Shown here in pieces: positions 9,521-49,834 of a stretch of DNA of 64,000 bases. Each line of letters opens with the position of its first letter. The stretch's first letter is position 1. The stretch comes from Candidatus Omnitrophota bacterium (GTDB lineage Bacteria > Omnitrophota > Gorgyraeia > Zapsychrales > Zapsychraceae), in contig DATDQB010000020.1 in the NCBI GenBank assembly GCA_035292445.1, positions 27,484 through 91,483 on the forward strand. Direction: 5' to 3'. The notes beneath the pieces were generated by a model. It had not been told where the DNA came from and ran no database searches. It saw nothing but the letters and a program-made list of their open reading frames with translations. A program made the position numbers and the translations under genes.

Positions 9521-10486
9521 TCAGATATTCTGCGGGTTCATCAATATATAGGCTAATTTCTTGTCTAATCTGCGTCTTTTCAACCACCGTGAGAAAGTCG
9601 GGACCAAGGTCAACAACACGCCGGCAGAGCAAACGGCAAGCATCTTGATGTTAGTGGGGTCCAATTGCATAGCCTTGCGAAAATATGATCTGGCCCTTGT
9701 CGCGTTGGACTCGATCTCATCATAGCCCACATGAAAATAAAAATTGGCCTTGGCCTGGTTAGCCTCCCTCTGCGTGATCCATCCATTATTGGTGTGCTTA
9801 TCTATCACCGCTAACGCTTTCTCTAGACGGGAATATTTAGAGCTTTCATTAACGACATGTTTTCTGTAAACTCCCTGGACTTCATCCAAGAAAACCCCAC
9901 CTGACAAGCGCAGGATCCTCAGCCAGAGATCGAAATCTTCTGCCGTGACGATCTCTTCATTTTCATCGAAATAACCAACCTTATTCAAAATGGCGCTTCT
10001 GACAATGACCGAAGAAGAACAAATAAAATTATTTTTGGTCAGCCTTTTGTATAAAGACCCGCAGCGATCATTAATTTTAGGACCGCGGATGCTCCCATCC
10101 TCAGTTAAGTCAGGGCTTTTTATTTGAAGCTTACAAAAACACAAACCATAAGACCCATCTTTCAGAAGTAGTTCTGTTTGTTTTTCCAATTTCTCGGGAA
10201 ACCACATATCATCCGAATCAAGGAACGCGATAAAATCTCCCTTAGCCTGTTTGATCCCGAAATTGCGGGAAGCGGCAATGATGCCTTTATTGGCGAACTG
10301 ATAATAACGTATCCTTTGATCGGGAACGGACCGGACGATCTGCTCCGTCTTATCTTTTGAAAAATTATCGACAATGATCAACTCAAGATTCCTGTGTGTT
10401 TGACCTAGGACAGAGTCTATCGCTTCTTTAATAAAGGCGGCGTGATTAAAAGTCGGCATGACCACCGATATTAGCGGCTCACTCAT
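9521..10486 (-). CDS. Glycosyltransferase family 2
   Basis: 321 aa. The N-terminal GT2 motif ISVVMPTFNHAAFIKEAIDSVLGQT...ELIIVDNFSKDKT and a DSDD motif (FLDSDDMW) are present. Confidence 0.8.
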   Translation of the reverse strand: MSEPLISVVMPTFNHAAFIKEAIDSVLGQTHRNLELIIVDNFSKDKTEQIVRSVPDQRIRYYQFANKGIIAASRNFGIKQAKGDFIAFLDSDDMWFPEKLEKQTELLLKDGSYGLCFCKLQIKSPDLTEDGSIRGPKINDRCGSLYKRLTKNNFICSSSVIVRSAILNKVGYFDENEEIVTAEDFDLWLRILRLSGGVFLDEVQGVYRKHVVNESSKYSRLEKALAVIDKHTNNGWITQREANQAKANFYFHVGYDEIESNATRARSYFRKAMQLDPTNIKMLAVCSAGVLLTLVPTFSRWLKRRRLDKKLAYILMNPQNI

Positions 10487-11448
10487 TTTTTCTTTCCCGC
10501 CTTAATAGGCTTCTCGAACATCCGCATGGTGGCCAATACCTCTTCCTCCATGTTATTCCTTAATTTAAAACCCGTTTTCTTTAATTTTGTAATTTGGTAA
10601 ACGAAGGGTTGCGCCTTCCGCTCCTTGTCCTTAACGGACAGATCGAGCTGAACCGATTTCCTATAATGGTCCTCGTAAATCTGCGCTACTTTTAAAGCGA
10701 CATCGCATACGGATAAACAACACTCACCGCCAAGATTGAAAATGCCATCTTGCCAGCGTTGAGGGTCCATCGAAAGGACATGCTCTAGCGCCCCCAGGAC
10801 ATCGGTCATCGCGATAAAATCGCGAAATGGATTTCCTTGAGGCACGATCCTTTGGGTTTCTACGGCGTCGCGACAAAACGCATTAAATACGAGTTGTTTG
10901 GCCGTTTCCGCGATCTCATCGTCCTGCGGGTAACCATAAGCATTGGAGAGCCTGAAGATCGCTGTTTTCATGCCCCCCTTACCATTAAGATCCGAAACTA
11001 TCTTTTCGGCTTCCCATTTTGACCGGGCATAATTGTTTTGCGGGTCCGCAGGGTACTGCTCATTGATGTCCCCCGATAATTGTCCGTAGATCTGGAACGT
11101 TGAGAAGTATATGAATTTCTTAATACCAAGCTGAGCCGCGTGATGCGCCGCATGCCTCGTTCCTTCCACATTGACCAACACAGCTAGATCGTTATTCTCC
11201 TGACATAATTTCTGCGGCAATGCGGCTAAATGAACGATGACTTCAGGGCTCTCTTGGTTCAAGGCCTGTTGGATCGACTTCTTATCTTGTAAATCCATAT
11301 AAACTACGCGGCAGTTTCCCTTTGCCCATACCGGGTACTGGCGCCTTGTGGTCGACAAAATAATATCGTCATGGGGCCGTTTTTCCTTAAGAAAACTTGC
11401 CAACCGCCCGCCGATGTAACCTAGTCCGCCGGTAATAAAGATCTTCAT
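10483..11448 (-). CDS. NAD(P)-dependent epimerase/reductase (SDR). By position, probably the 4-ketoreductase of the CDP-6-deoxyhexose branch
   Basis: 321 aa with the MKIFITGGLGYIGGRLASFL Rossmann motif and a YARSK catalytic pair. It lies immediately downstream of the cupin and rfbG genes. Confidence 0.65.
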   Translation of the reverse strand: MKIFITGGLGYIGGRLASFLKEKRPHDDIILSTTRRQYPVWAKGNCRVVYMDLQDKKSIQQALNQESPEVIVHLAALPQKLCQENNDLAVLVNVEGTRHAAHHAAQLGIKKFIYFSTFQIYGQLSGDINEQYPADPQNNYARSKWEAEKIVSDLNGKGGMKTAIFRLSNAYGYPQDDEIAETAKQLVFNAFCRDAVETQRIVPQGNPFRDFIAMTDVLGALEHVLSMDPQRWQDGIFNLGGECCLSVCDVALKVAQIYEDHYRKSVQLDLSVKDKERKAQPFVYQITKLKKTGFKLRNNMEEEVLATMRMFEKPIKAGKKK

Positions 11449-11454
11449 TTTAGA

Positions 11455-11892
11455 TTAATCCCAAGAATAAGGAATTGATGGGTCGGAGATCTCTAATTGT
11501 ACGGACTCCTTTGGGTTATGGGGCATATCCGTGCAATTGGCGATCATCGCCGGTCCGGTGCTTTTGGCTTTAAAAGAATACCAAACATTAGGGGGGATGC
11601 GCACCAGCTGATAATTACCCTCTCCGATCCTGATTTCCTGGACTTCGCCCTTTGTCGAGGAATCAGCACGGTCATCGTAAATGACCAGCTGAAGAACCCC
11701 GACAGGCACGGCGAAATGCTGCGTTTGTTTAAGGTGTTTTTTCCATCCCTTTATAAAGCCGGGGTTGACGGTCGAAAAATAAATTTCCCCAAACCGCTCA
11801 AAATAAGGGGCATCGCATCGAAGCATACGCTTGACACTGCCTCTTTCGTCGTTCATTTCTTTCAGTTTCTCAATGATGACGCCTTTGATCAT
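11455..11892 (-). CDS. RmlC/FdtA-like cupin (NDP-4-keto-6-deoxyhexose 3,5-epimerase or 3,4-ketoisomerase)
   Basis: 145 aa. The size and sequence (DERGSVKRML, GWKKHLKQTQHFAVPVG) fit the small cupin sugar epimerase/isomerase family. It is translationally coupled to rfbG. Confidence 0.55.
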   Translation of the reverse strand: MIKGVIIEKLKEMNDERGSVKRMLRCDAPYFERFGEIYFSTVNPGFIKGWKKHLKQTQHFAVPVGVLQLVIYDDRADSSTKGEVQEIRIGEGNYQLVRIPPNVWYSFKAKSTGPAMIANCTDMPHNPKESVQLEISDPSIPYSWD

Positions 11893-13046
11893 GGATGATT
11901 TTTAAGCTGCGACCATTTGATGTTTTGTTCTTGGGCTTTTTGAATATACTGTTGAATTTGTCCCATGGAAAATCGAACCATATCTTCCTTCTTTTGATAA
12001 TAAACCTTATACCACGCTGCTGTTAACTGCACTGTTTCTTTAAATGTTAACGCCGGACGCCAGCTCAGCCGTTGGTCGGCTTTATCGATCGATAATTGTA
12101 AAAGCGTTGCTTCCTTTCTCTCCCCTTCCAAAGCCGCATGCTCCCAACGGCCTTTTTGTTCCATAAATGTTGCGCTTAGCTCGACCAGCTCGGAAACGGA
12201 ATGGACATCCTGAACACGCGGCCCAAAATTGAACGATTCACCGGCTACACCGTCCGGATTTGTTAGAAGGGATGCTCCCAACCATAAATAACCGCTGATC
12301 GGCTCTAAGACATGCTGCCACGGGCGGGTGGCCTCTGGCTTTCGAATGAGGGCTTTCTGATTCTGGCTCCACGATCTCATGCAATCCGGGATGATCCTAT
12401 CTTTCGCCCAATCGCCCCCTCCGATTACGTTTCCCGCGCGGGCTGACGCGCATTTTATGCCCTCTCCTTTATTAAAAAATGACCGGCAATAAGCGCTGAA
12501 GGCAAGCTCAGCGCACGCCTTAGATGCGCTGTAGGGATCAGCCCCTCCTAGCCGGTCGGTTTCCTTATAACCTTGATTCCACCCGACATTTTCATAGCAT
12601 TTATCGCTGGTAATAATCACTACCGCTTTTACCGTCGGACTATTTTTAACACATTCAAGGACATTGACAGTGCCGCCTAAATTGGTATCAAAGGTGATTT
12701 TTGGTTCATCATAAGAATGACGGACGATAGGTTGGGCAGCCAAATGAAAAACTATCTCAGGCTTAAATTGAGCGAACGCTTTCTCAAGATCGCGGATAGC
12801 ACAAATATCCTTTCTGTGGTCCTTTAGTTTTTTCTTTAATGACAGGGCCTCGAAAAGACAAGGCTGCGTGGGAAGGTATTTGGAAAACCCGGCCACTTGG
12901 GCCCCTAAATGGACCAACCAAAGGCTAAGCCATGACCCTTTAAAGCCCGTATGGCCCGTGACCAGGACCCTTTTGTTCTTATATTGATTTTTGAATAGTT
13001 GGGGAGGGATTACCACTTCTTCCATGCGGGGCGGCCTTCTTCCCAA
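11889..13046 (-). CDS. rfbG: CDP-glucose 4,6-dehydratase
   Basis: The N-terminus KNKRVLVTGHTGFKGSWLSLWLVHLGAQVAGFS and later blocks (EIVFHLAAQPIVRHSY, ITSDKCYEN, ARAGNVIGGGDW, RPWQHVLEP) match RfbG/DdhB almost block for block. The true start is probably the Met at about 13025. Confidence 0.9.
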   Translation of the reverse strand: MGRRPPRMEEVVIPPQLFKNQYKNKRVLVTGHTGFKGSWLSLWLVHLGAQVAGFSKYLPTQPCLFEALSLKKKLKDHRKDICAIRDLEKAFAQFKPEIVFHLAAQPIVRHSYDEPKITFDTNLGGTVNVLECVKNSPTVKAVVIITSDKCYENVGWNQGYKETDRLGGADPYSASKACAELAFSAYCRSFFNKGEGIKCASARAGNVIGGGDWAKDRIIPDCMRSWSQNQKALIRKPEATRPWQHVLEPISGYLWLGASLLTNPDGVAGESFNFGPRVQDVHSVSELVELSATFMEQKGRWEHAALEGERKEATLLQLSIDKADQRLSWRPALTFKETVQLTAAWYKVYYQKKEDMVRFSMGQIQQYIQKAQEQNIKWSQLKNHP

Positions 13047-13783
13047 AGCGTTTTTAAATACTCATAATCCCTATGAGTGTCCATGCATTGCCAAAAACCT
13101 TTGTGCACAAAAACCTTCAATTGACCATCCCTGGCTAATTTGACGAGCGCATCCTTTTCCAAAACACACTGGTTATCATCGCTGAGATAGTCAAAAATCT
13201 TTTTGTTAAAAACGAAATATCCACCGCTGATCGAATTCTTATGGTCATGCGGTTTCTCGTTGAACGCAAGGACACGATCGTCCTCGATCAATAATTCGCC
13301 ATAACGCGATTGAGGAACGACCCCGGTGACCGTGCCGATCTTACCGTGCGCTCTATGAAATTTTAACAACTCCTTGATATCCATATCAATGACGCCATCG
13401 CCATAAGTCAGCATGAACTCGTCATCTTCTATAAATTTCTCGATCTTTTTGACACGCGCGCCTGTCATGACATGTTCACCGGTATCGACCAGCGTTACTT
13501 TCCACCCCTTTTCCAAATGGCGCGGATGGATCGTTATATTTGCTTTACCGAACTCCACGGTAAAATCGTTGGCGATCAATTCGTATTCATAAAAGAAGCG
13601 CCGGATCACTTCCCCCTTGTACCCTAAGCACAGCACAAAATCCTTAAACCCATAGTGCGCATATGTCTTCATGATATGCCAAAGAAGGGGCATGCCCCCG
13701 ATCTCGACCATCGGTTTAGGCTTGACCTCGGTTTCTTCCCGCAACCGGGTCCCTTGCCCCCCACATAAAATAACGACTTTCAT
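13010..13783 (-). CDS. rfbF: Glucose-1-phosphate cytidylyltransferase
   Basis: 257 aa. MKVVILCGGQGTRLREETEVKPKPMVEIGGMPLLWHIMKTYAHYGFKDFVLCLGYKG...GFWQCMDTHRD...PWKKW is a near-textbook RfbF sequence. Confidence 0.92.
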   Translation of the reverse strand: MKVVILCGGQGTRLREETEVKPKPMVEIGGMPLLWHIMKTYAHYGFKDFVLCLGYKGEVIRRFFYEYELIANDFTVEFGKANITIHPRHLEKGWKVTLVDTGEHVMTGARVKKIEKFIEDDEFMLTYGDGVIDMDIKELLKFHRAHGKIGTVTGVVPQSRYGELLIEDDRVLAFNEKPHDHKNSISGGYFVFNKKIFDYLSDDNQCVLEKDALVKLARDGQLKVFVHKGFWQCMDTHRDYEYLKTLWEEGRPAWKKW

Positions 13784-16999: not shown

Positions 17000-17841
17000 T
17001 TTCTCTTCTTTCTTAGGACATAAAGTTTTTGAATGCCGAAATCCCCGGAATTCTCGGTTTCCTTATATTGGGCAAAAAAGTTATTGATCGGATTCTCAAA
17101 TGAGTCTTTATCGCTCTTTCCCATAGTGAGGTACCTTAAAAAACGGGAGGCGACATAATAAATGCTCGAGAATTTCCTGACCGCCACTATATCAAAATAA
17201 GGCTTCAGGAATTCTTCGCATTTCGTCTCCTTCAAATATAAATTGAACTCATGGACTTTCAAAGGCTTCAAATGCGCCAATGCCCTCAAGGCATTCATCT
17301 TTTTGAGGCTTCCCTCAAAAGCTTCCGACATCAAATAGAGCCCTCCGGGCTTAAGAACGCGATGGATCTCCAGTATGGCCTTTTTTTGGTTCTTCCAATT
17401 CGGCAAGTTGATCAAGACACGAATGGTATAAGCTGCGTTGAAATGATCGTCTTGAAACGGGATATTTAAAATGTTGCCTTCAATAAATCGGATCCTGTCC
17501 TGAGGGTCCTTTTCTTTTTTCCGGCTCTTGGCAATGGCAATGGCTTTCTCACTATAATCGAAGGCTTCTATGCGGGCATCTTTGGCCTTCGCTACCTTAT
17601 AGGTGGAGAATCCATTTGAACAACCGGCATCTAAAATAAGTCCCCTGTCGGGTAAGTACGCCAAGATATTGTCAATTTCCAACTTCATCATATTTATATC
17701 GCCCCATGAGACCTCATTCGATGCTTTAAATTTCTCGGCATTAGACTCCCAGAAAGAATGGTTCATCCTCATCTTTCTTAATTCTTCATCATTAAGAGTT
17801 ACATTTAAACTTAACGGATTATGCGTGTTTTGACGGTTCAT
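16996..17841 (-). CDS. Class I SAM-dependent methyltransferase
   Basis: About 281 aa from the internal Met at 17841, which abuts the upstream GT4 stop. Motif I is ILDAGCSNGFST and the post-II motif is VLKPGGLYLMSE. Confidence 0.65.
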   Translation of the reverse strand: MNRQNTHNPLSLNVTLNDEELRKMRMNHSFWESNAEKFKASNEVSWGDINMMKLEIDNILAYLPDRGLILDAGCSNGFSTYKVAKAKDARIEAFDYSEKAIAIAKSRKKEKDPQDRIRFIEGNILNIPFQDDHFNAAYTIRVLINLPNWKNQKKAILEIHRVLKPGGLYLMSEAFEGSLKKMNALRALAHLKPLKVHEFNLYLKETKCEEFLKPYFDIVAVRKFSSIYYVASRFLRYLTMGKSDKDSFENPINNFFAQYKETENSGDFGIQKLYVLRKKRK

Positions 17842-19160
17842 TGGCTTAACTGGAACTGCTTTTGAGCTGTGAGGTCCTTTAAATATGAGAGATATTGCTT
17901 GGCCTGGTATTCTTGAGAACACATTTGCCTTAATTGATCGTTCGTCTTTTGTCCTGCGTTCTCGCTTGTTAAACATTCCCAAAGGGCTTGTGCATACGCT
18001 TGAGCATCCAATTCATTCACCAGCCTTCCGTCCTGGTCGCATTGAATAAGATCGCGCGCCACGCCGCGGTTAAAAGCCACGACCGGCGTGTGGCACATAA
18101 ATGATTCAATGACAACCCTCGGGCCAAAATCATCGATCGATGGGCAGGCAAAAATATCGGCAGCCTGAAAGGCCGACGCCATTTTTTGCTCGCCATTGAT
18201 ATGGCCCAAATGCTTCCAAGGAAAAGCCAGTTCAGGCGCTAAGAATCCCTCTGGATTACCTCCGAAAGTTGCAAGAACGACTCTGCCTTTAATGGCATTA
18301 GGCTCGTTTTCCATTCTCTTTTGTAACAGCCGCAGCGCCTCGATCAGGTAACTGGCCCCTTTTCTTTTGTTGGCTACATCTAAATTGAAACAACCGAAAA
18401 GAATGATCTTCGCTTCCTGGGGCAGGTCCCATTCCCTGCGGGATTGCCTTTTATCCCCTTTTCTGAAAATATCCGGATCGACGCCAAGCATAATGCGTTT
18501 AATGGGCTGACGTTTAAAGAGCGAGCTTCTTTCGATATGTTCCTGCACCCAGCTCGAGGCGGTGATCAAGTGGATCGGCAAACCATCCCAATTTTTCTTC
18601 TTTTCATCCCAGTTACGCCTTGATATATCGTTAACAAATGCATTCTTTAATTGGGGGCACTCACCGCAAGAATCTTCGAATTTCCGGCAATCATTATGAA
18701 AATGACACCCTCCCGTTAATGGCTCCATGTCCATCGTTGTCCATACAATAGGCGCGCAAGAATAATGCTGAATATCCCTGATGAGTTGCGGCGAAAGAAA
18801 AGATTGCACGGAATGTAAGCAAAGAATGTCGACTTTTTGTAAATATTTTTTTAACTTGTTCAAAGAAATAAAGGCAAGGCCGAAATTGAATATGGTCTCC
18901 GGGACCCATCTTATCTTCTTCAACTCCCAGCGTAATTTTGCCCAAAGAAATGGCAGGATACTTGGCCCTTTTTGAAAGAAATCTTTTAAAGGACGCAGCG
19001 GCCCTTCGCAGACCTGAATAACCGAATCGTCAACCCCCTTCTTTCTATAAACCAGCATCGTGGAATTCACCCCAAGCTTTCGCAAAGAAGTATGAAGCGA
19101 GTAAACCGCTTTTCCCGCGCCATCAAAATCGTTATTGGTCAAATGGATGATATTCATCAA
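17838..19160 (-). CDS. Glycosyltransferase family 4 (GT-B)
   Basis: 440 aa. A C-terminal GT1/GT4 region (FACPSIDDFGPRVVIESFMCHTPVVAF) is present. Confidence 0.7.
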   Translation of the reverse strand: MMNIIHLTNNDFDGAGKAVYSLHTSLRKLGVNSTMLVYRKKGVDDSVIQVCEGPLRPLKDFFQKGPSILPFLWAKLRWELKKIRWVPETIFNFGLAFISLNKLKKYLQKVDILCLHSVQSFLSPQLIRDIQHYSCAPIVWTTMDMEPLTGGCHFHNDCRKFEDSCGECPQLKNAFVNDISRRNWDEKKKNWDGLPIHLITASSWVQEHIERSSLFKRQPIKRIMLGVDPDIFRKGDKRQSRREWDLPQEAKIILFGCFNLDVANKRKGASYLIEALRLLQKRMENEPNAIKGRVVLATFGGNPEGFLAPELAFPWKHLGHINGEQKMASAFQAADIFACPSIDDFGPRVVIESFMCHTPVVAFNRGVARDLIQCDQDGRLVNELDAQAYAQALWECLTSENAGQKTNDQLRQMCSQEYQAKQYLSYLKDLTAQKQFQLSQ

Positions 19161-19190: not shown

Positions 19191-21143
19191 CTATACAGTA
19201 ATCTTTTCCTTAGATTCTGGAGCGAGCTCTAATTTCTCGTCTTTTTGAATGGATTGTTTGGGTCGGGGCTTGATCTCTAGCTCTCGGCTGCCATAAATAG
19301 CACGGATTTTTGCATCTAAGACCTTCTGCACCTGAAGTGTAGAATTAATGCGTTTTTCAATGTGCTTGTATCCAATAATTTTGTGGAAAAGGTTACGCAA
19401 CTTGATCTTCCAATCCTTCAAACCAAGCGTCGGGTAGGCATCTTCTTTCTCCAAATTCTCGATATTCTCCAGAAGTGAAGTTAAGATGAGCGTCTCTTCG
19501 AAATTCCTTCCATAAGGCAGGAGTTCATCTAGAGGAATAATTTTTTCTTCTTTTTCTAAAGGAGAAAAGTCGCCTGTTTCGATGGCTTTAACCTTCATTT
19601 CTATTTCTTCGGTCACATCCTCCGGTTTAATTAACTTGAATTCCTTTAGGGCATTATCGTACTCTTTGCTCACAAAATAATATTCAAACAGAAGTTTGTG
19701 CTTATTGGGCAATTCTTCAACGTCAAACAGATTATCCAGCTTATATTCCTTGGCCTTTTTACAAAATTCCTCGAACCGCTCCATCCGTTTTAAATACGTG
19801 CTGTTGCCGTCCAGGCTTTCCCAATAAAGATGGCCTTTTGACAGATCGATCCCGTACTTTTCCGGATTGGCGTGGCCCGCCGAGCCCGGGTAATATTCAC
19901 AAAAGTTCAAAGAAGGATTGACCATGCTGAAAGCTTTTTTGTTATCCCTTAAGAAATCCATGAGGTATTTAAAATCGTCTTCCGTCTCCGTAGGCAGGCC
20001 GAACATGATATTGACGCTCACATAAAGGCCTGATTTCTTGCCTTCGCGGAGCACGGCGGCGATATCGACGTCCTTGCAAAGGTTCTTGCCCACATCCATC
20101 AACACTTTTAACGAGGGGGTTTCCATGCCGTAGCCCAAAAGCGTACAGCCGGCTTTTTTGAGCTTCTTGTAAAGAGGCATTCGCATTTCCTTGCGGATAA
20201 CGGCATTCTCAAGATTCCACTTCACCCTTTTGTTAAGCCCCGATTCGATCATCAGATCGCAAAATTTCTCCAGCTCGTTTATCTTTGAATTGGAAATGTT
20301 GTCGCACATGCGGAAATAACAGACGTTGGGGTATTGCTCTAATTGGTATTTGATTTCCGCGAAAACGCGTTCTGCCGTGCGCACGCGGAATTGGTTCATG
20401 AACCCGATGGCGCTGCAATAATTGCACTTATTCACGCATCCCCGCGTTGTGTACGTAGGCAAAGTATTGGGCTGATCGTAATATTTGAATTCAAAATCAC
20501 TGAAATCCGGAAAGGGCAGCGAATCCAGCTTTTTGATAAACTCGGCATGGGGCCCGCGGATCAACTTACCGTTATGTTTATAAACAAAACCGGGAACGGC
20601 TTGGCCCTCTTGGCCATTTTTGACCATCTGCATATAACCTAAAAGCGCATTCTCCCCTTCATCCTGGCTTATGGCATGGATATAATCCCGGGCCAGCAAT
20701 GTATCGGTATTTTCCATAAAGCTCGCGACGTCAGGTCCGCCTAACAGATGGATAAATTCTCCGGGCATCATATTGTGCATATCTTCAAAGAAGATCTCGG
20801 CTAATAACCGCGAGGAGCATTGGCAGGAACACCCTACAACGAGCGGATTTAATTCGCGAAGCCGTTGCATGTACTCAAGGAAAATGGCGCGATTCTCTTT
20901 ATAATAATGCTGCATCGCCTCGCGTTCCATGCAGTAATTATAACCATTGGCCATATCCCAATAGCGCCGGTACTTTTTCCCCCCAAAATTATAAGCATAC
21001 GCATTCAGGTCCAATACGGTACATGAAACGTCATTTTCCCGTAAAAAGCTTTTCAATAGTGCGGGCCCTAAAGGCGGGCATCCGACACCCCAGAACGGCA
21101 TCTGGATAATGACAAGATCGGTTTTATGTCCTTTTTTGATCAT
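19191..21143 (-). CDS. B12-binding domain / radical SAM protein (class B radical SAM, methyltransferase-like)
   Basis: 650 aa. It has an N-terminal cobalamin-binding-like segment and a canonical Cx3Cx2C cluster (TTRGCVNKCNYCS). A strong RBS (AGGGAGG) lies 7 nt upstream of the ATG. Confidence 0.8.
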   Translation of the reverse strand: MIKKGHKTDLVIIQMPFWGVGCPPLGPALLKSFLRENDVSCTVLDLNAYAYNFGGKKYRRYWDMANGYNYCMEREAMQHYYKENRAIFLEYMQRLRELNPLVVGCSCQCSSRLLAEIFFEDMHNMMPGEFIHLLGGPDVASFMENTDTLLARDYIHAISQDEGENALLGYMQMVKNGQEGQAVPGFVYKHNGKLIRGPHAEFIKKLDSLPFPDFSDFEFKYYDQPNTLPTYTTRGCVNKCNYCSAIGFMNQFRVRTAERVFAEIKYQLEQYPNVCYFRMCDNISNSKINELEKFCDLMIESGLNKRVKWNLENAVIRKEMRMPLYKKLKKAGCTLLGYGMETPSLKVLMDVGKNLCKDVDIAAVLREGKKSGLYVSVNIMFGLPTETEDDFKYLMDFLRDNKKAFSMVNPSLNFCEYYPGSAGHANPEKYGIDLSKGHLYWESLDGNSTYLKRMERFEEFCKKAKEYKLDNLFDVEELPNKHKLLFEYYFVSKEYDNALKEFKLIKPEDVTEEIEMKVKAIETGDFSPLEKEEKIIPLDELLPYGRNFEETLILTSLLENIENLEKEDAYPTLGLKDWKIKLRNLFHKIIGYKHIEKRINSTLQVQKVLDAKIRAIYGSRELEIKPRPKQSIQKDEKLELAPESKEKITV

Positions 21144-21801: not shown

Positions 21802-21813
21802 CTTGTTCCTTGC

Positions 21814-22593: not shown

Positions 22594-22601
22594 CTTTAAC
22601 C

Positions 22602-30832: not shown

Positions 30833-32069
30833 GCGATACCTTCTTGTTTCCGGTCACTTCAAAGACCTTCTCCCCCATGACTTCGGCCAGGTATTGTGCG
30901 ATCAACTGATTTCCTTTTTTTGTAATGTGGCCCCCATACAGATCCTCTGTATAAAAAGTCGCCAAATCCTGCTTAAGAATAAAATCGCTTAGATCAATGA
31001 CGGTCATCTCCTTGCCGATCTCTTGGTAGAATGGACGATAAGCAGATCCCCTCTTAAAATGCACAATACGCTTTAGGTCCATAAGCTGCGGTATAACGAC
31101 GATGACGGGCTGATGCCCGCGACCTTCGGCCCCGGCCTTGAAACGCATCAAAATGGATTTTAACAAAGCACAAGATTCTTTATCAGAATACATTTGATGG
31201 GCTTGATCGATATTACCCTCCATAATGATCTGAAACGGCCTGTTCTCGAGCGTCGAATTGGAACGCTTCACGGACCGCGCCAGAACCCGGACAATGAGGC
31301 TTGCGATCAGCCGGCTGTTCCTTTTAAAATTACGAAAATAACTTAGCGTGTAAGGAAAACGGAATTGCATATGCCGAAACTTTGAGGCGTAAAACCCGTC
31401 GTTTTTCCGAAGGTCTCTCAATTTCGGTTCCAGCTCTCTAAAATCCTCTTGTGTTTGCATCACGTTCGGTAAAAGCTCCAACTGTCCGTCTTTGAGCACG
31501 AACCTCGGCTTGAAAGCAAACGTGTTACCGAACTCCAGATAATGCTTCCAATACGACTGCACGCGGCAGATCGTCTCCGGGACAAAGGAGAATATAACAA
31601 TCTTCACCGAATCCGCCAGCTGCGTCCGCTCATAACGTAACAATGTTTGGTCAACCCCGTAATTTCCCACCCCGTAATTGGACACGCCGATACCTAACAG
31701 CTGCGTCAAATAGACCTGCCAAGTCTCGTCGTCATTGACCTGCCGGCAAAAATTGTAAGAATCCCCGAAGGTGGCGATTGTCTCTTCTTTATCCGCCAAC
31801 AACGGATTTGTCCTGCCGCCTTTGGCATCGATCGTGAACGTCGTACGAACGTCGCGCGCCTTTTCCGCGCCCGAGGTATGGGGCCTTCGCACCCATCCTA
31901 ACTGCCCATCGAAGCCGTGATTGAAAAACTTCTCCAACCCCTGCTTGTCCAAAGCCGGCAATTCATCTGCTTCCGTGATAAGCCATTGGAAATCCCTGTG
32001 CAAATATTTGATCAGCGCAATAAAAGCCACCTCAAGCAATATAATTCCTATTAGGATAGAGTAGATCAT
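30822..32069 (-). CDS. Membrane-anchored SGNH/GDSL-family hydrolase (candidate glycan O-acyl esterase/transferase)
   Basis: 415 aa. It has an N-terminal TM helix and a GDSL block-I TIATFGDSYNF. The size and anchor resemble AlgJ/AlgX-type proteins. Confidence 0.5.
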   Translation of the reverse strand: MIYSILIGIILLEVAFIALIKYLHRDFQWLITEADELPALDKQGLEKFFNHGFDGQLGWVRRPHTSGAEKARDVRTTFTIDAKGGRTNPLLADKEETIATFGDSYNFCRQVNDDETWQVYLTQLLGIGVSNYGVGNYGVDQTLLRYERTQLADSVKIVIFSFVPETICRVQSYWKHYLEFGNTFAFKPRFVLKDGQLELLPNVMQTQEDFRELEPKLRDLRKNDGFYASKFRHMQFRFPYTLSYFRNFKRNSRLIASLIVRVLARSVKRSNSTLENRPFQIIMEGNIDQAHQMYSDKESCALLKSILMRFKAGAEGRGHQPVIVVIPQLMDLKRIVHFKRGSAYRPFYQEIGKEMTVIDLSDFILKQDLATFYTEDLYGGHITKKGNQLIAQYLAEVMGEKVFEVTGNKKVSHAI

Positions 32070-33154
32070 CGCTCTTCTTTCGCCAAAAGATGCCTGGCGC
32101 GGCCTCCATTAACATAATCCCATCGTAAAGGGCTTCCCTTTTTAATATTCTTGATAGCCTGCTTTCCCCAGAATTTATCGGCATATTTGGGGCTCAATCC
32201 ATGGCCGGGCCTGATGGAGCGGACATTGTTCTCATCAAACTTCTCGCCCTTTTTGATGTCCCTGACCGCAAACAACGACCGCCTGAAAACACGGCTTTTC
32301 ATTTCCTCTTGGCTAATGACGTTCTTTTCCTGGCCTAACGCTTTCTCCACAAGCCGGATATGATCAACCAATGTTTTCAGCTCATGCGGATCGATGGAAA
32401 AGAAACTATCCGGTGTCTTGTGCCGCTTCGATAGAATAAAATGCTTTTCAACGAGGACCGCCCCCAGGGTAACGGCAACCAATGCCATGTCGACCCCTAA
32501 AGTGTGATCGGAAAACCCAATGGGGCACTTAAATCGTTCCTCCATCGCCGGAATAGCGCGTAAATTCATCTCCTCAGGAATTGCCGGATAATTGCTGACG
32601 CATTTTAATAGAATGATCTCTTTTGCCCCTGCTTCGCGTGCCGCCTTAACAGCCTCTTCTATTTCCTGTTCGGAAGCCATGCCGCTGGACATAATTAATG
32701 GTTTCTTGGTCTTGGCGGCATACTTGATCAATGGTATGTCGACCAATTCAAAGGAAGAAATTTTGTGCGCCGGAACATTGAGATCTTCCAACAGATCAAT
32801 GCTCGTTTTATCAAAAGCCGATGAAAAAAAGCAGATCCCTTCATCGTCACAAACCTTTTTCAGCTTCTTGAACCAATGCCACGGGGTATAGCCCTTTTTA
32901 TAAAGCTGATACAAAGTTTGCCCGCCCCATTTGGGATGTTTGACCTGAAAATATTTGTTACTGCTGTTCAATGTAATGGTATCCGGCGTATACGTCTGGA
33001 ATTTCACCGCATCGGCCCCGCAGGCCTTGGCCTCTTTGATCATGTTGACGGCACGGTCGAACTTTTGGCCATGATTGGCGGAGATCTCCGCGACAATAAA
33101 TGCCGGGCAATTGTCACCTATTTGTTTATTGCCGATACGTATTTTTGTCATCAT
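32066..33154 (-). CDS. NeuB-family nonulosonic acid synthase (sialic/pseudaminic/legionaminic acid synthase), copy 1
   Basis: 362 aa. IVAEISANHGQKFDRAVNMIKEAKACGADAVKFQTY is present, followed by a C-terminal SAF domain. Confidence 0.85.
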   Translation of the reverse strand: MMTKIRIGNKQIGDNCPAFIVAEISANHGQKFDRAVNMIKEAKACGADAVKFQTYTPDTITLNSSNKYFQVKHPKWGGQTLYQLYKKGYTPWHWFKKLKKVCDDEGICFFSSAFDKTSIDLLEDLNVPAHKISSFELVDIPLIKYAAKTKKPLIMSSGMASEQEIEEAVKAAREAGAKEIILLKCVSNYPAIPEEMNLRAIPAMEERFKCPIGFSDHTLGVDMALVAVTLGAVLVEKHFILSKRHKTPDSFFSIDPHELKTLVDHIRLVEKALGQEKNVISQEEMKSRVFRRSLFAVRDIKKGEKFDENNVRSIRPGHGLSPKYADKFWGKQAIKNIKKGSPLRWDYVNGGRARHLLAKEER

Positions 33155-34611
33155 TTATCCTTTAGATAAACAAGCGCTTTGGACCTGACATTCTTGACCG
33201 TCAAATTCTTCCGGAACTCAAATCGGGCCTTTTCAAAGGCGCGGATCGAGGCGGCATTCTTTTCCTTTATGATCGCCGTCACGGAACGGATATCGCTTCT
33301 TTGCCTTAACAAACGATCGACACTGCGCGAAATGACAGATGGGCTTAAGCTCAACCCTCTGATAGAGGGATCCAAACTGATACTAATAACAGCGTCCTTA
33401 CGCGCAGGGTCCACTTGGAATCGGATTTGCCCTTGCACGTCTTCTTGACCGTTTAAAACATAGAACATGCAATTCTTATCCTTTAACTTTCCGTCAAACC
33501 ATTTCAAATGCTCATTCCAACGAATCTTGCGGGTATTCGATGAATTGGCCCGGGCCAAAGGATCATTGGATATTTGAAATATCCTTTTAGCATCCTCATA
33601 TCGGGCTTTTCTCAACTGGAATCTACCCTTATAGTAATGGAAAAGTACATCCTGAATGATCCGCCTCGCGCCAAGGCCATCCACCAACGATTGTCCTTTA
33701 AAGGACCTTTCCCGTCGAATGGCTTCACTCTTATAGGCCAACAAGGTCTCCTTAAGTTCATCCATCAAACGGGGATGGTTCGAGCGTCCAATATAGGCGA
33801 CGAACCCCAATCGTTCATACTTCTTGATGTTCGGTAGCTGATTGTCCGCCAAGCATAGAGCTATCGTTGGGACCCCCATGCCGGCCAGTTCGTTCAACGT
33901 TTGTCCACCGGCGGAAATGCACAGATCCACCTTGGCCATGAGCCTTCTTAGATCTTTTGCATTTAAAAAAGGATAGGCCCTGATGTCCGTGGACCGGCCT
34001 GCATGAACGGGGCCGATGACATGGGATTGTAACCCGCATTCTCTAACAACACGAATGATCCTATCCATCAGATCCCTGTTCCTGGTCCCTCCTAGGCTGA
34101 TCAAAATATGAGCCAAATCTTTACGAATATTTTTCTTCTTCTTAAGGTTAAAACCATTTCTAAGCATCGCATAACGCTGGCCAATGAGATATTGCAAGCC
34201 CTTGCGATTCCTGTACCCCACGTCCCTTTTATCGCTGATCGTCGCATTAATGACCGCATGCGCATCATAGGCCAGGCGATCATAGTCATCGAAGACAACG
34301 ACGAACGGCTTTCGGTCGCTGGCATAGAGTTGGCGATAGAACGCTAGCGGCGCCTGATAGGAATCGACAAAGACGATCGTATCCTTCTTTAAATTCTTCA
34401 ACACGCTGCGAGATCGCTTCAACCAATCGATCGATTCATAGGGGCATCCCGCTTCTCTCATATATTTTCGACCATAAGCATCGGCCCTGACGAGAAATCG
34501 CACGTTCATCTTAGGCTTAAACGTTGCAAACCCCTGGAAAAGGCTTAAGCACCTGCTTAAATGGCCAAAGCCCTGTTTCTTCCCGCCTTCTGTTAATATA
34601 CGGATGTCCAT
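33151..34611 (-). CDS. Bifunctional PseG-like UDP-sugar hydrolase / PseH-like GNAT N-acetyltransferase fusion
   Basis: 486 aa. The N-terminal GFGHLSRCLSL motif is the PseG G-x-G-H-x-x-R signature, and the hydrolase domain spans about 320 aa. The C-terminal 150 aa form a GNAT fold (QIRFQV...ISISLDPSIRGLSLS...ASIRAFEKARF), resembling PseH. Confidence 0.6.
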   Translation of the reverse strand: MDIRILTEGGKKQGFGHLSRCLSLFQGFATFKPKMNVRFLVRADAYGRKYMREAGCPYESIDWLKRSRSVLKNLKKDTIVFVDSYQAPLAFYRQLYASDRKPFVVVFDDYDRLAYDAHAVINATISDKRDVGYRNRKGLQYLIGQRYAMLRNGFNLKKKKNIRKDLAHILISLGGTRNRDLMDRIIRVVRECGLQSHVIGPVHAGRSTDIRAYPFLNAKDLRRLMAKVDLCISAGGQTLNELAGMGVPTIALCLADNQLPNIKKYERLGFVAYIGRSNHPRLMDELKETLLAYKSEAIRRERSFKGQSLVDGLGARRIIQDVLFHYYKGRFQLRKARYEDAKRIFQISNDPLARANSSNTRKIRWNEHLKWFDGKLKDKNCMFYVLNGQEDVQGQIRFQVDPARKDAVISISLDPSIRGLSLSPSVISRSVDRLLRQRSDIRSVTAIIKEKNAASIRAFEKARFEFRKNLTVKNVRSKALVYLKDK

Positions 34612-34613
34612 CT

Positions 34614-35393
34614 CTATTTCCTTACAGGAATCCCCTGCTTTTCCATATCTTCTTTACATGTCATCGGTGTAATGCTCGTAAAATGAAAGATGCTGGCAGC
34701 GGATACGGCCGAGGCCCCTTGTTGGATCGCGGCACTGCAATCACTGGGGCTCGCCGCTCCTCCCGCCACAATTAAAGGAATATCCCTGACGATGGAGGCC
34801 GCATACCGGATCAGATCCAGATCGTACCCGCTCATTTTTCCGTCCAGATCCACGTTATTGAGCAATATCTCCCCGACTTTACAATATTCCATCAATATTT
34901 TAAGGACCTCTTCAAAGGTATAGCGGATCTCACGCCCCGCATGGGAATACAACTTATACTGGCCATCCTCCCCTTTTCGAACATCGATGGATGCGACAAT
35001 GCATTGGCTTCCAAAGACCTCGACCGCCTGTTTGACGACATCAATGTCGTCAAAAATAATCGTGTTCAGCGATACTTTATCCGCTCCCGCCTCCAACGCG
35101 TTGGCGATGTCTTGGCAGGACCTTAAACCACCCCCTACAGTTAACGGCATAAAACAATGGTCCGCAACAGTTGAAACGGTATGCAGGTCAATGCCCCGAC
35201 CCTTTTTGGAGGCGTCGATATCCAGTAAGATCAACTCATCAATGTTACGGTTGTTATACACCCTGGCCACCGTTATCGGATTGCCCAGATTGCGACGGAC
35301 ATCGAACTGGATCGTTTTAACGACGGAATAACCGTCCAACAGGACAAGCGGTATGACGCGGTGGCGCAACATGATCAATATTTCCCCTTGCAA
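34614..35393 (-). CDS. HisF-like cyclase subunit (imidazole-glycerol-phosphate-synthase-like; acetamidino-sugar amidotransferase component), copy 1
   Basis: 259 aa. RVIPLVLLDGYSVVKTIQF...DELILLDIDAS...PLTVGGGLRS is present. Confidence 0.8.
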   Translation of the reverse strand: MQGEILIMLRHRVIPLVLLDGYSVVKTIQFDVRRNLGNPITVARVYNNRNIDELILLDIDASKKGRGIDLHTVSTVADHCFMPLTVGGGLRSCQDIANALEAGADKVSLNTIIFDDIDVVKQAVEVFGSQCIVASIDVRKGEDGQYKLYSHAGREIRYTFEEVLKILMEYCKVGEILLNNVDLDGKMSGYDLDLIRYAASIVRDIPLIVAGGAASPSDCSAAIQQGASAVSAASIFHFTSITPMTCKEDMEKQGIPVRK

Positions 35394-35986
35394 AAATTTT
35401 CAAGTAACTTAAGCCCGGCCTTTTGGCTTTTCTCCGGATGGAATTGAAAACCTAAAATGTTCTCCTTTTGGACGCCGGCAATAAAATCCTTCCCGTAATG
35501 GCAGGTGGCCGTTTGGACCTTTTCATCGGGAACGAATTCGTAACTGTGCACGAAATAAAAACACGGGGCGGCCGGCATGTTATCAAATACAGGAAAATTG
35601 CCAAAACTCACATCATTCCATCCTATGTGGGGCAGCTTGACGCCGTTAAGGCTATGGCGCAAATGGGACACCCTTCCTTTAATAAGGTCCAACCCTTCGC
35701 TTGGCCCGCCTTCTTCCCCTTGGCTGGCGAGCAGTTGCATCCCCAAACAAATGCCCAAAATGGGTGTCTTATCTTCGATAACTCTTTTTCTGATGGCCTC
35801 ACGCAATCCCGTCGATTTTAAACGGCTTGAACCTTCGGCAAAACTTCCGACACCAGGCAAGATCATCTTTTCACAATTAATGACGTCTTCAAGACGATCC
35901 GACACTTTATGTTCCACGTTCAAGAACTTGAGCGCACGGCTGACGCTGGCAATATTGCTGATCTTTAGATCGATGACCGTGATCAT
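35375..35986 (-). CDS. HisH-like glutamine amidotransferase subunit
   Basis: 203 aa with a GATase1 fold (ILGICLGMQLL). It forms a pair with the HisF-like gene. Confidence 0.8.
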   Translation of the reverse strand: MITVIDLKISNIASVSRALKFLNVEHKVSDRLEDVINCEKMILPGVGSFAEGSSRLKSTGLREAIRKRVIEDKTPILGICLGMQLLASQGEEGGPSEGLDLIKGRVSHLRHSLNGVKLPHIGWNDVSFGNFPVFDNMPAAPCFYFVHSYEFVPDEKVQTATCHYGKDFIAGVQKENILGFQFHPEKSQKAGLKLLENFCKGKY

Positions 35987-37915: not shown

Positions 37916-37997
37916 ATTGTCTCCCGTCATTCTTTTTTTCTATTCTGACGAGGCTCGCCCGCCAAAATTAATTTATTTTGGCGAGGCGGCCTATTAT

Positions 37998-44781: not shown

Positions 44782-44826
44782 TGAATCATTCCTCTCTAAA
44801 TCATAACAGCCAAGTTAGAATGAAAA

Positions 44827-44961
44827 TTCCAAGAAACAAGATACAATAACCAAACAATCATCAATAAACAAATTCCAAATTCAAAACCGACCCAAGTTTG
44901 GTCTATTTGGTTATTGTTATTTGGGTATTGTTTGTTTCTTGTACCTTGGTTATTGGTTATT
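44827..44961. repeat. Imperfect palindromic intergenic repeat element, copy A (about 135 nt)
   Basis: Left arm ttccaagaaacaagatacaataaccaaacaat...ccaaattcaaaaccgacc. Right arm ggtctatttggttattg...tttgtttcttgtaccttgg. The arms are mutually reverse-complementary (caagaaacaa against ttgtttcttg). It shares words (aacaagataca, ccaaattcaaaa, tcttgtaccttgg) with the element at 53499-53635. Confidence 0.55.
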
Positions 44962-44982
44962 TCACGCATAGTATTGTTTGAC

Positions 44983-49816: not shown

Positions 49817-49834
49817 TGGGTCGGCCTATTGCTT

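What the first reader, a model, noticed from the sequence alone, without database searches (positions are those of the whole stretch)
19191..21143. Three paralogous B12-binding radical SAM enzymes dispersed through a polysaccharide island
ORFs at 19191-21143, 37998-39743 and 53661-55253 all combine an N-terminal cobalamin-binding-type domain with a radical SAM core. Class B radical SAM enzymes typically C-methylate unactivated carbons, as in the aminoglycoside enzymes GenK and Fom3. Three of them in a glycan locus imply unusual C-methylated or otherwise radical-modified sugars, possibly on the nonulosonic acids. Together with at least five conventional SAM methyltransferases this points to a heavily methylated glycan.
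Basis: partly seen in the sequence, partly recalled or inferred. Interest (0 to 1): 0.7.

Follow-up and report, generated by a model that had tools for sequence, protein, structure and literature searches.

The report
Three B12-radical-SAM enzymes in glycan island
Three real but only distantly related cobalamin-type radical SAM enzymes sit in a 64-kb surface-sugar gene island of an Omnitrophota bacterium, each tied to a different sugar pathway, which points to undescribed radical (probably C-methyl) modifications of sialic-acid-like sugars found across many phyla.

Summary
ORFs 19191-21143 (RS1), 37998-39743 (RS2) and 53661-55253 (RS3) all have class B radical SAM architecture: an N-terminal cobalamin-type Rossmann domain with conserved Gly-Gly and Gly-Glu motifs, plus a radical SAM core. 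They are not recent paralogs. RS2 and RS3 are sister families (27% identity) and RS1 is remote (20-23%). None reaches any NCBIfam equivalog cut-off, including BchE, HpnJ/HpnR, PhpK and AprD4.

Gene context gives the main result. RS3 is directly preceded by an MptE/Maf-like gene in 63 of 67 loci, and by a conserved ~58-aa ORF in 50 of 66. A CMP-sugar cytidylyltransferase and legionaminic-acid-type genes usually lie nearby. RS2 has an invariant CX6CX2C motif and sits inside pseudaminic-acid clusters (52 of 57 loci). RS1 travels with a GT4, a GT2 and CDP-6-deoxyhexose genes. RS1-like units are also fused to glycosyltransferase, methyltransferase and sulfotransferase domains in giant proteins.

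C-methylation itself remains inference: AprD4, a non-methylating sugar dehydratase, is the nearest solved fold to RS3. I found no literature on these families.

The parts
19191..21143 (-). RS1: class B radical SAM, 650 aa. CX3CX2C at C236/C240/C243, diverged cobalamin-type N-domain, helical TPR-like C-terminal region.
17838..19160 (-). GT4 glycosyltransferase directly downstream of RS1, its recurrent partner.
   Evidence: Pfam Glycos_transf_1. Orthologs score 390-392 bits next to RS1 homologs in L005 and L168. A GT4 is adjacent or near in L006, L169 and L171.
9521..13783 (-). CDP-glucose synthase (RfbF), CDP-glucose 4,6-dehydratase (RfbG), cupin epimerase, reductase and GT2. This block recurs downstream of RS1 homologs.
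   Evidence: NCBIfam TIGR02623 343.8 (cut-off 300) and TIGR02622 463 (cut-off 278). Synteny in L168 and L169 and, by Pfam gene order, L171.
37998..39743 (-). RS2: class B radical SAM, 581 aa, with an invariant CX6CX2C motif (C285/C292/C295).
37163..37930 (-). PseF-like CMP-sugar cytidylyltransferase directly downstream of RS2.
   Evidence: Pfam CTP_transf_3. TIGR03584 100.5 bits, below cut-off. Directly downstream of RS2 homologs in 19 of 63 loci.
32066..37179 (-). Pseudaminic-acid-type genes downstream of RS2: WbuX amidotransferase, HisH, HisF, a PseG/PseH-like fusion and PseI.
   Evidence: NCBIfam PseI 456.6 (cut-off 340) and WbuX 362.6 (cut-off 203); PseG and PseH below cut-off. Pfam.
40419..41642 (-). 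PseC aminotransferase upstream of RS2, separated from it by a TylF-type O-methyltransferase at 39754-40416.
   Evidence: TIGR03588 526.4 (cut-off 423.5). A PseC-like gene lies directly upstream of RS2 homologs in 17 of 53 loci.
53661..55253 (-). RS3: class B radical SAM, 530 aa, CX3CX2C at C210/C214/C217.
55253..56296 (-). MptE/Maf-like protein (347 aa) whose stop codon overlaps the RS3 start. Obligate upstream partner of RS3.
   Evidence: Pfam PF01973 57.6 (cut-off 34.6). Weak PseD-domain hit. Family profile hits archaeal MptE 8sd5 (1.7e-8) and Maf 5mu5 (1e-3). Adjacent to RS3 in 63 of 67 loci.
56296..56475 (-). Conserved ~58-aa ORF (M..LKGNF...ALASLGGSMVY.ER..L.W.G) whose stop overlaps the MptE-like start.
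   Evidence: 51-57% identity to the Leptospira and Uabimicrobium copies; 50 of 66 loci. No NCBIfam family.
52745..53473 (-). CMP-nonulosonate cytidylyltransferase-like gene downstream of RS3.
   Evidence: Pfam CTP_transf_3. PseF-like 131.9 bits, below cut-off. Within 5-6 kb of RS3 in 33 of 40 fully flanked loci and 49 of about 69 loci.
43540..50908 (-). Legionaminic/neuraminic-type gene set: CBS-nucleotidyltransferase, LegC-like aminotransferase, NeuD/PglB acetyltransferase, NeuB, NeuC, HisF-like WbuZ and WbuX.
   Evidence: NCBIfam NeuB 458 (cut-off 400), NeuC 459 (cut-off 236), WbuX 357 (cut-off 203), LegC 412.5 (just below 420).

Best explanation
The window is one co-directional glycan-biosynthesis island of a Candidatus Omnitrophota genome. 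Its three class B (cobalamin-type) radical SAM enzymes are separate tailoring enzymes, each serving a different sugar sub-pathway.

RS3 works in a translationally coupled unit: a small 58-aa protein, an MptE/Maf-like protein and RS3, followed by a CMP-sugar cytidylyltransferase, next to a legionaminic-acid-type pathway. RS2 works inside a pseudaminic-acid pathway, between PseC and a PseF-like cytidylyltransferase. RS1 works with a GT4, a GT2 and a CDP-6-deoxyhexose pathway, probably on the growing glycan.

Inferred mechanism: the [4Fe-4S] cluster cleaves SAM to a 5'-deoxyadenosyl radical, which abstracts a hydrogen from an unactivated sugar carbon, and methylcobalamin then delivers a methyl group. 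For RS2 and RS3 the substrate is most likely the nonulosonic acid or its CMP-activated form, giving an activate-modify-transfer logic like cytidylyl-HEP and Fom3, with the Maf-like protein transferring the product.

Shown: the domain architecture, the conserved cofactor motifs, the family separation and the gene contexts. Inferred: cobalamin use, methyl transfer, and the exact substrate and carbon.
For: Architecture and motifs: with motif definitions from PMC9204698. Organism.

RS3 module: searches show the same small-ORF/MptE/RS3/cytidylyltransferase order in Leptospira ryugenii and a Uabimicrobium-type genome. Searches cover 80 species-level loci from more than 15 phyla: MptE-like adjacent in 63 of 67, small ORF in 50 of 66, any nonulosonate-pathway gene within 6 kb in 36 of 40.

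RS2: a Pse-pathway gene within 6 kb in 52 of 57 loci; same arrangement in a Pacearchaeota-labelled MAG; PseC and PseI equivalogs in the window.

RS1: (GT4 / CDP-6-deoxyhexose / GT2 synteny). One search shows a GT2-RS1 fusion (P0118). Searches show RS1-like units fused to GT2, GT4, class-I methyltransferase, sulfotransferase and SPASM domains.

Precedents (PMC9204698): the class B enzymes GenK and GenD1 C-methylate gentamicin, an aminoglycoside, and Fom3 requires a cytidylylated substrate.
Against: No direct evidence for methyl transfer. None of the three reaches any curated family cut-off. Orthology to GenK, GenD1 or Fom3 could not be tested. The nearest solved fold to RS3 is AprD4, a non-methylating and cobalamin-independent sugar dehydratase. 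Class B enzymes also do ring contraction (OxsB). RS1's B12 domain falls below the Pfam threshold in RS1 and its close relatives. The RS2 cluster motif is non-canonical. No cobalamin riboswitch or B12 genes occur in the window. The small-ORF/MptE/RS3 module sometimes lacks nonulosonate genes within 6 kb (for example L045, L043, L031). The role of the small ORF is unexplained.
Confidence: 0.55

Rival explanations
1. The enzymes act on the same sugars with non-methylating radical chemistry: AprD4-like 1,2-diol dehydration (deoxygenation), or an OxsB/HpnJ-type rearrangement or epimerisation of the nonulosonic acid or 6-deoxyhexose.
Confidence: 0.25
2. RS3 modifies the co-encoded 58-aa protein, not a free sugar. 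This would be a peptide-directed, RiPP- or cofactor-like system in which the Maf-like enzyme and cytidylyltransferase attach a nonulosonate to the peptide, for example at the invariant Ser of the GGS motif.
For: The small ORF is conserved across phyla (51-57% identity) and translationally coupled. It is present in 50 of 66 loci. The module can occur with no nonulosonate genes within 6 kb (L045, L043, L031). Maf enzymes O-glycosylate Ser/Thr (abstracts). Many class B enzymes methylate peptides, and RS1's best NCBIfam hit is a RiPP C-methyltransferase model.
Against: The small ORF is undetected in 16 of 66 loci. The module is embedded in nonulosonate clusters in 36 of 40 fully flanked loci. No peptidase, exporter or leader-recognition element is conserved next to it. 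There is no precedent.
Confidence: 0.1
3. RS1 tailors the phosphorus-containing decoration encoded just upstream (a phosphoramidate or phosphonate), for example by P- or C-methylation, rather than a sugar carbon.
For: RS1 lies immediately downstream of a Cj1415-1418-like gene set in the window, L005 and L168. Two RS1 paralogs flank a PEP-mutase phosphonate cluster in L006. RS1 has weak hits to P-methyltransferase models (59.6 and 55.8 bits).
Against: RS1 homologs in L004, L169, L170 and L171 have no such genes adjacent. The most constant partners are GT4, GT2 and CDP-6-deoxyhexose genes. The P-methylase models fall about 10-fold below their cut-offs. One search lists only Cj1415-Cj1418, none described as a radical SAM enzyme, as required to make the C. 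jejuni MeOPN donor CDP-phosphoramidate 3'-phosphate.
Confidence: 0.08
4. The enzymes are unrelated to glycans: BchE-type cyclases, hopanoid or lipid methylases, or RiPP enzymes that lie in the island by chance.
For: BchE, HpnJ and RiPP models are among the top, sub-threshold, NCBIfam hits. Some database sources auto-name homologs as BchE.
Against: Scores are 4- to 40-fold below cut-offs. Conserved glycan neighbourhoods appear in about 170 independent loci, and there are domain fusions to glycosyltransferases.
Confidence: 0.02

Closest known systems
GenK / GenD1 (gentamicin C-methyltransferases, class B radical SAM)
   Same: Cobalamin-type N-domain plus radical SAM core. They act on unactivated carbons of amino-sugars (PMC9204698).
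   Different: Orthology not testable here and no curated model matched. GenK works on a secondary-metabolite pseudotrisaccharide, whereas these enzymes sit in cell-surface glycan and nonulosonate loci of uncultured bacteria and archaea.
Fom3 (fosfomycin; methylates cytidylyl-2-hydroxyethylphosphonate)
   Same: A class B enzyme whose substrate must first be CMP-activated by a pathway cytidylyltransferase. RS2 and RS3 are flanked by CMP-sugar cytidylyltransferases.
   Different: Its substrate is a phosphonate, not a sugar acid. No detectable specific relationship. A CMP-nonulosonate substrate is inferred, not shown.
AprD4 (apramycin radical SAM 1,2-diol dehydratase, PDB 6fd2)
   Different: AprD4 dehydrates rather than methylates and, to my knowledge, binds no cobalamin. 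RS families keep the Gly-Gly and Gly-Glu motifs aligned to TokK and CysS. The NF033070 cut-off is missed by more than 460 bits. No reductase partner is conserved.
TsrM, TokK, CysS, MgmA, OxsB (structurally solved cobalamin-dependent radical SAM enzymes)
   Same: Top structural matches for both models, at 12-19% identity. The N-domains align with conserved cobalamin-tail motifs.
   Different: Their substrates are different (tryptophan, carbapenem, cystobactamid, MCR glutamine, a nucleoside). Sequence identity is too low for functional transfer.
Maf / PseD flagellin nonulosonic-acid transferases and archaeal MptE
   Same: The RS3 partner gene carries the PF01973 MptE-like domain shared by Maf proteins. 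It sits beside a CMP-sugar synthetase.
   Different: It is only 347 aa and lacks Maf's flanking domains. It scores 40 bits against a cut-off of 670 for the PseD model. Transferase versus (pyro)phosphokinase activity is undecided. It is paired with a radical SAM enzyme and a 58-aa protein, which is not described for Maf systems (the GlfM partner is a four-helix bundle).
Campylobacter jejuni MeOPN (CDP-phosphoramidate) pathway Cj1415-Cj1418
   Same: The same four domain types occur upstream of RS1: APS-kinase-like, nucleotidyltransferase, Peptidase_C26 amidotransferase and a PEP-utilising kinase. Pathway described in PMC11800397.
   Different: Direct homology to the C. jejuni proteins was not tested. 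The domain assignments of the Cj proteins come from my own knowledge. Here the genes are accompanied by sulfotransferase-like genes.

Membership tests
Class B (cobalamin-dependent) radical SAM superfamily | Radical SAM core with a three-Cys [4Fe-4S] motif | tested here: met
   Pfam Radical_SAM E 2e-13 to 7e-13 for all three. RS1 CX3CX2C and RS3 CX3CX2C. RS2 has an invariant CX6CX2C variant.
Class B (cobalamin-dependent) radical SAM superfamily | N-terminal Rossmann-type cobalamin-binding domain | tested here: met
   PF02310 is above cut-off for RS2 and RS3. RS1 is below the Pfam threshold but is homologous by hhalign, by profile hits to the CysS and TokK N-domains and by fold. The RS3 model also matches MetH and corrinoid-protein B12 domains.
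Class B (cobalamin-dependent) radical SAM superfamily | Gly-Gly (beta4) and Gly-Glu (alpha5) motifs that hold the base-off cobalamin tail (PMC9204698) | tested here: met
   Conserved in all three family alignments; the Gly of the RS2 Gly-Glu (G182) is only nearly invariant. In register with TokK AGGP...GEGE and CysS LGGP...GEGE.
Class B (cobalamin-dependent) radical SAM superfamily | Actual cobalamin binding and dependence | not testable with these tools
   Needs purified protein. No cobalamin riboswitch in the window.
GenK / GenD1 / Fom3-type C-methyltransferases | Specific sequence clustering with the characterised enzymes | not tested
   Their sequences and models were not available in any tool. 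No PDB entries for them were hit.
GenK / GenD1 / Fom3-type C-methyltransferases | Methyl transfer to an sp3 carbon with SAH plus 5'-dAdo co-products | not testable with these tools
   Biochemical assay required.
BchE, HpnJ, HpnR, PhpK/Sden_1168 P-methylases, ladderane, MCR Gln methylase, TsrM, BzaD, KedN5 (NCBIfam equivalogs) | Score at or above the curated cut-off | tested here: not met
   Best scores against cut-offs: RS1 120 vs 281.85 (TIGR03975); RS2 100.1 vs 750 (ApyD) and 96.7 vs 481 (BchE); RS3 87 vs 577.6 (HpnJ).
AprD4 radical SAM diol-dehydratase (NF033070) | Score at or above cut-off 500 | tested here: not met
   16.7, 33.5 and 22.4 bits, although AprD4 is the nearest solved fold to RS3.
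Maf / MptE-like (PF01973), for the RS3 partner gene | Pfam domain above gathering score | tested here: met
   57.6 bits against 34.6. The family profile hits MptE 8sd5 and Maf 5mu5.
Flagellin modification protein PseD/Maf (NF050051) | Full-length match at or above 670 bits | tested here: not met
   40.2 bits, covering only the central domain.
Pseudaminic-acid pathway (context of RS2) | PseC and PseI equivalogs present beside RS2 | tested here: met
   PseC 526.4 (cut-off 423.5) and PseI 456.6 (cut-off 340.25). PseF, PseG and PseH are below cut-off.
MeOPN / CDP-phosphoramidate pathway (context of RS1) | Orthologs of Cj1415-Cj1418 | tested here: inconclusive
   A matching domain set is present and there is no ATP sulfurylase in the window.

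The most novel reading that the evidence does not exclude
The small-ORF / MptE-like / RS3 / cytidylyltransferase unit is a self-contained, previously unrecognised system found in more than 15 phyla. It makes a radical-modified (for example C-methylated) nonulosonic acid and attaches it to, or builds it on, the conserved 58-aa protein (invariant GGS serine). That would be a new class of nonulosonate-peptide conjugate, rather than a simple polysaccharide tailoring step.
Probability: 0.12. Interest if true: 0.85.

Novelty: new variant of a known kind. Interest (0 to 1): 0.62.

Why it matters
Nonulosonic acids (the pseudaminic, legionaminic and sialic family) decorate flagella, capsules, LPS and S-layers, and they shape immune recognition and phage recognition. 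Their known modifications are N-acyl, amidino and O-substituents. Two highly conserved families of cobalamin-type radical SAM enzymes (60-78% identity across bacterial phyla and archaea-labelled MAGs) are hard-wired into Pse- and Leg-type clusters. This predicts a class of carbon-skeleton modifications of these sugars that has not been described.

It is directly testable, because the RS3 module occurs in cultured strains: Methylobacter tundripaludum SV96, several Thalassotalea, Colwellia and Cognaticolwellia species, Leptospira ryugenii and Paramagnetospirillum caucaseum.

For radical SAM enzymology, it adds three uncharacterised class B families with a clear substrate hypothesis, an unusual CX6CX2C variant, and striking poly-rSAM/glycosyltransferase megaproteins.

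Tried and rejected
Not possible. Sequences of the uncrystallised enzymes were not retrievable with any tool. I used NCBIfam cut-offs, PDB profile searches and fold searches as substitutes.
- **Literature.** Four searches combined radical SAM, B12 or cobalamin with nonulosonic, legionaminic or pseudaminic acid, Maf or flagellin glycosylation. A fifth combined cobalamin-dependent radical SAM with polysaccharide, sugar and C-methylation. None returned a paper describing these families.
- **GlfM.** I considered whether the Maf-2 specificity factor could be the small ORF. Rejected: GlfM is a four-helix bundle, whereas this ORF is about 58 aa.
- **afdb50 fold library.** Unavailable.
- **Rfam scan.** No cobalamin riboswitch or any other family.
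- **Promoter/terminator scan.** Not above shuffle expectation. The only feature is a hairpin between the ABC exporter gene and the small ORF.
- **PDB searches for the Cj1418-like and APS-kinase-like proteins.** Generic homologs only.
- **'Recent paralogs by local duplication'.** Rejected. Each gene is far closer to homologs in other phyla (60-78%) than to the other two in the window (20-27%).
- **A frequent 504-aa 'NOHIT' neighbour cluster.** Probably an antisense ORF artefact lying over the MptE-like gene; this was judged from one locus (L023), not verified across loci.
Full report
**Observation**

The window carries about 56 genes, all on the minus strand. The three flagged ORFs exist exactly as given: 19191-21143 (RS1, 650 aa), 37998-39743 (RS2, 581 aa) and 53661-55253 (RS3, 530 aa). 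RS2 and RS3 hit Pfam B12-binding (50.9 and 48.9 bits; cut-off 32.1) and Radical_SAM (E about 1e-13). RS1 hits only Radical_SAM.

RS1's N-terminal domain is nevertheless homologous to the other two:
- A 30-member RS1 family alignment aligns from about residue 4 onward with the RS2 family and from about residue 24 onward with the RS3 family (hhalign probability 99.5% and 99.1%).
- Its profile hits the cobalamin-domain region of CysS (E 2.5e-15) and TokK (E 4e-9).
- Its AF2 model (pLDDT 87, pTM 0.86) retrieves CysS, TsrM, OxsB, MgmA and TokK before any other fold.

The review PMC9204698 names a Gly-Gly motif on beta4 and a Gly-Glu motif at alpha5 as the elements that hold base-off cobalamin in the solved class B enzymes. 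Both are conserved in all three families; only the Gly of the RS2 Gly-Glu (G182) is nearly invariant rather than invariant:

| Enzyme | Gly-Gly | Gly-Glu |
|---|---|---|
| RS1 | G135-G136 | G163-E164 |
| RS2 | G157-159 | G182-E183 |
| RS3 | G96-98 | G120-E121 |

They align in register with TokK (AGGP...GEGE) and CysS (LGGP...GEGE). The cluster motif is the canonical CX3CX2C in RS1 and RS3. RS2 has an invariant CX6CX2C (CPYAxxACDYC).

**Relationship of the three**

RS2 and RS3 share 27% identity over their full length (E 1e-43; profile-profile probability 100%). RS1 shares 23% with RS2 over 316 residues and 20% with RS3. Each has much closer relatives elsewhere:
- RS1 has homologs at up to 77%; a 100% match places the window in a Candidatus Omnitrophota MAG.
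- RS2 has hundreds of homologs at 65-76%, labelled Pacearchaeota, Bathyarchaeia, Cytophagales, Anaerolineae and Rokubacteria.
- RS3 has more than 1,400 homologs, at 62-78% in Leptospira, Uabimicrobium, Spirochaetales, Elusimicrobia and Proteobacteria.

They are three old, separately mobile families, not local paralogs. None reaches any NCBIfam cut-off. The best scores are 120 against 281.85 (RS1, RiPP C-methylase model), 100 against 750 (RS2) and 87 against 577.6 (RS3, HpnJ). BchE scores 81-97 against 481.

**What surrounds them**

Pfam and NCBIfam scans of all ORFs resolve the island into modules, listed here in transcription order:
1. FkbH-like protein, GNAT and a SPASM radical SAM enzyme.
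2. An ABC exporter.
3. Small ORF, MptE-like protein, RS3 and a cytidylyltransferase, followed by a legionaminic/neuraminic-type set: CBS-nucleotidyltransferase, LegC-like, NeuD/PglB-type, NeuB (458, cut-off 400), NeuC (459, cut-off 236), WbuZ and WbuX.
4. Cupin, CBS-epimerase, PseC (526, cut-off 423), TylF O-methyltransferase, RS2 and a PseF-like cytidylyltransferase, followed by WbuX, HisH, HisF, a PseG/H-like fusion and PseI (457, cut-off 340).
5. A PEP-utilising protein (PRK05849, 859 bits), a Peptidase_C26 protein, two sulfotransferase-like proteins, an unknown 655-aa protein, a methyltransferase, a nucleotidyltransferase and an APS-kinase-like protein.
6. RS1, GT4, a methyltransferase, a dTDP-glucose-dehydratase-like protein, an aminotransferase, a methyltransferase, RfbF (344, cut-off 300), RfbG (463, cut-off 278), a cupin, a reductase and GT2.
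7. Wzy-like proteins, GT4, WecG and the initiating Bac_transf.

**RS3 context**

In Leptospira ryugenii and a Uabimicrobium-type genome, the RS3 homolog sits in the same order: about 60-aa ORF, MptE-like, RS3, CTP_transf_3. The window has the same small ORF at 56296-56475. Its stop overlaps the MptE-like start, and it is 51-57% identical to the other two copies.

A scan of one genome per GTDB species returned 80 loci from Omnitrophota, Planctomycetes, Leptospiraceae, Elusimicrobia, Gamma-, Alpha- and Deltaproteobacteria, Bdellovibrionota, Chloroflexi, Nitrospinota, Acidobacteria, Myxococcota, Verrucomicrobia, Latescibacterota, Rokubacteria and a CPR genome. I searched six-frame ORFs of these loci with all window proteins:
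- The MptE-like gene is directly upstream on the same strand in 63 of 67 loci with enough sequence.
- The small ORF is detected in 50 of 66.
- A cytidylyltransferase is within 6 kb in 33 of 40 fully flanked loci.
- Any nonulosonate-pathway gene is within 6 kb in 36 of 40.

The MptE-like family profile hits archaeal MptE (8sd5, E 1.7e-8) and the Maf flagellin glycosyltransferase (5mu5, E 1e-3). Transferase versus kinase activity stays open.

**RS2 context**

Eighty metagenome loci, analysed the same way, show a Pse-pathway gene within 6 kb in 52 of 57 loci with at least 3 kb of flank. The gene directly upstream is PseC-like (17 loci), PseG/H-like (13) or NeuB (12), out of 53. A cytidylyltransferase is directly downstream in 19 of 63. 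A Pacearchaeota-labelled MAG has the order cupin, DegT, PseG-like, RS2, CTP_transf_3, NeuB-GNAT. In L009 and L014 an RS2 homolog directly follows RS3.

**RS1 context**

Nine loci were examined. GT4 orthologs (390-392 bits) and the MT25 methyltransferase follow RS1 in L005 and L168. The RfbF, RfbG, cupin, reductase and GT2 block recurs in L168, L169 and L171. The Cj1415-1418-like set lies upstream in L005 and L168.

In Salidesulfovibrio brasiliensis the homolog sits in a NeuB/Maf island. P0118 is a GT2-RS1 fusion.

An exhaustive search of 1.84 billion representatives found 743 clusters at E ≤ 1e-30. Many of the top hits are 1,000-2,700-aa proteins with two to four RS1-like units. Pfam shows these fused to other domains:
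- SPASM radical SAM plus four B12-rSAM units (P0361).
- GT2, TPR, class-I methyltransferase, B12-rSAM units and SPASM (P0364).
- Sulfotransferase, GT2, GT4, SPASM and B12-rSAM (P0395).

These fusions combine the same functions that are separate genes around RS1 in the window. They argue that RS1 acts together with glycosyltransferases on the growing glycan.

**Mechanism**

Shown: class B architecture with conserved cofactor motifs, three distinct families, and each bound to a sugar sub-pathway.

Inferred: reductive SAM cleavage, hydrogen abstraction from an sp3 sugar carbon, and methyl transfer from methylcobalamin, as in GenK and Fom3. For RS2 and RS3 the recurrent cytidylyltransferase neighbour suggests a CMP-activated nonulosonate as substrate. 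This parallels Fom3's need for cytidylyl-HEP, with the Maf-like protein transferring the product. I give this 0.55.

A peptide-directed role for RS3 through the small ORF (0.10) and a phosphorus-decoration role for RS1 (0.08) remain possible.

**Known or new**

Five literature searches found nothing that links cobalamin-dependent radical SAM enzymes to nonulosonic acids, Maf systems or polysaccharide C-methylation. The Maf partner GlfM is a four-helix bundle, unlike the 58-aa ORF. I rate the finding a new variant of a known kind: uncharacterised class B families in an undescribed, widely conserved pathway context. Interest is 0.62.

Noticed in passing
window 56296-56475 (-): Conserved ~58-aa ORF (LKGNF...ALASLGGSMVY.ER..L.W.G), translationally coupled to the MptE-like gene. 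It is found in 50 of 66 RS3 loci across phyla. No NCBIfam family matched; Pfam was not searched. Function unknown.
   Followed up: partly
window 21271-30832 (-): The gene set has the four domain types of the C. jejuni CDP-phosphoramidate (MeOPN) pathway: APS-kinase-like, NTP_transf_3, Peptidase_C26 and PEP-utilising PRK05849 (859 bits). It also holds two sulfotransferase-like genes, an unknown 655-aa protein and a methyltransferase. No ATP sulfurylase is present in the window. This may encode a phosphoramidate decoration rather than, or as well as, sulfation. The same set recurs in L005 and L168.
   Followed up: partly
P0361, P0362, P0364, P0395: Giant 1,650-2,700-aa proteins carry two to four tandem RS1-like B12-radical-SAM units. 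These are fused to SPASM radical SAM, GT2, GT4, class-I methyltransferase, sulfotransferase and TPR domains.
   Followed up: partly
window 37998-39743; family alignment A3: The RS2 family has an invariant non-canonical CX6CX2C cluster motif (C285/C292/C295). Compared with RS3 this is a three-residue insertion.
   Followed up: partly
P0235: A 932-aa RS2 homolog has a precomputed LAGLIDADG_3 (PF14528) hit, which suggests an intein inside the radical SAM enzyme.
   Followed up: no
L006:457-9249: A phosphonate-type gene set lies directly upstream of two RS1 paralogs: CTP_transf-PEP mutase fusion, TPP decarboxylase, Fe-ADH, a 670-aa B12-radical SAM and CDP-OH_P_transf.
   Followed up: no
window 59542-63736 (-): A fourth radical SAM enzyme (SPASM type, 59542-60657) sits next to a GNAT-like protein and an FkbH/HAD-IIIC protein (TIGR01686, 274 bits). 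SPASM radical SAM genes also recur near RS1 and RS3 homologs (L004, L015, L170).
   Followed up: no
window 53661-55253: The exact RS3 sequence was absent from the protein-database hit list (best 78%). RS1 and RS2, which the database places on a contig of the same length (223,230 bp), were found at 100%.
   Followed up: no
window 138-1412 and 8019-9632 (-): There are two Wzy_C-domain proteins. This domain also occurs in PglL-type O-oligosaccharyltransferases, so the island could serve protein glycosylation as well as polysaccharide synthesis.
   Followed up: no
   Followed up: yes
L009 and L014: In two other Omnitrophota genomes the RS2 homolog lies directly after RS3 (MptE, RS3, RS2, cytidylyltransferase, unk618, PglD). 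The two sister enzymes can therefore work in one operon.
   Followed up: no
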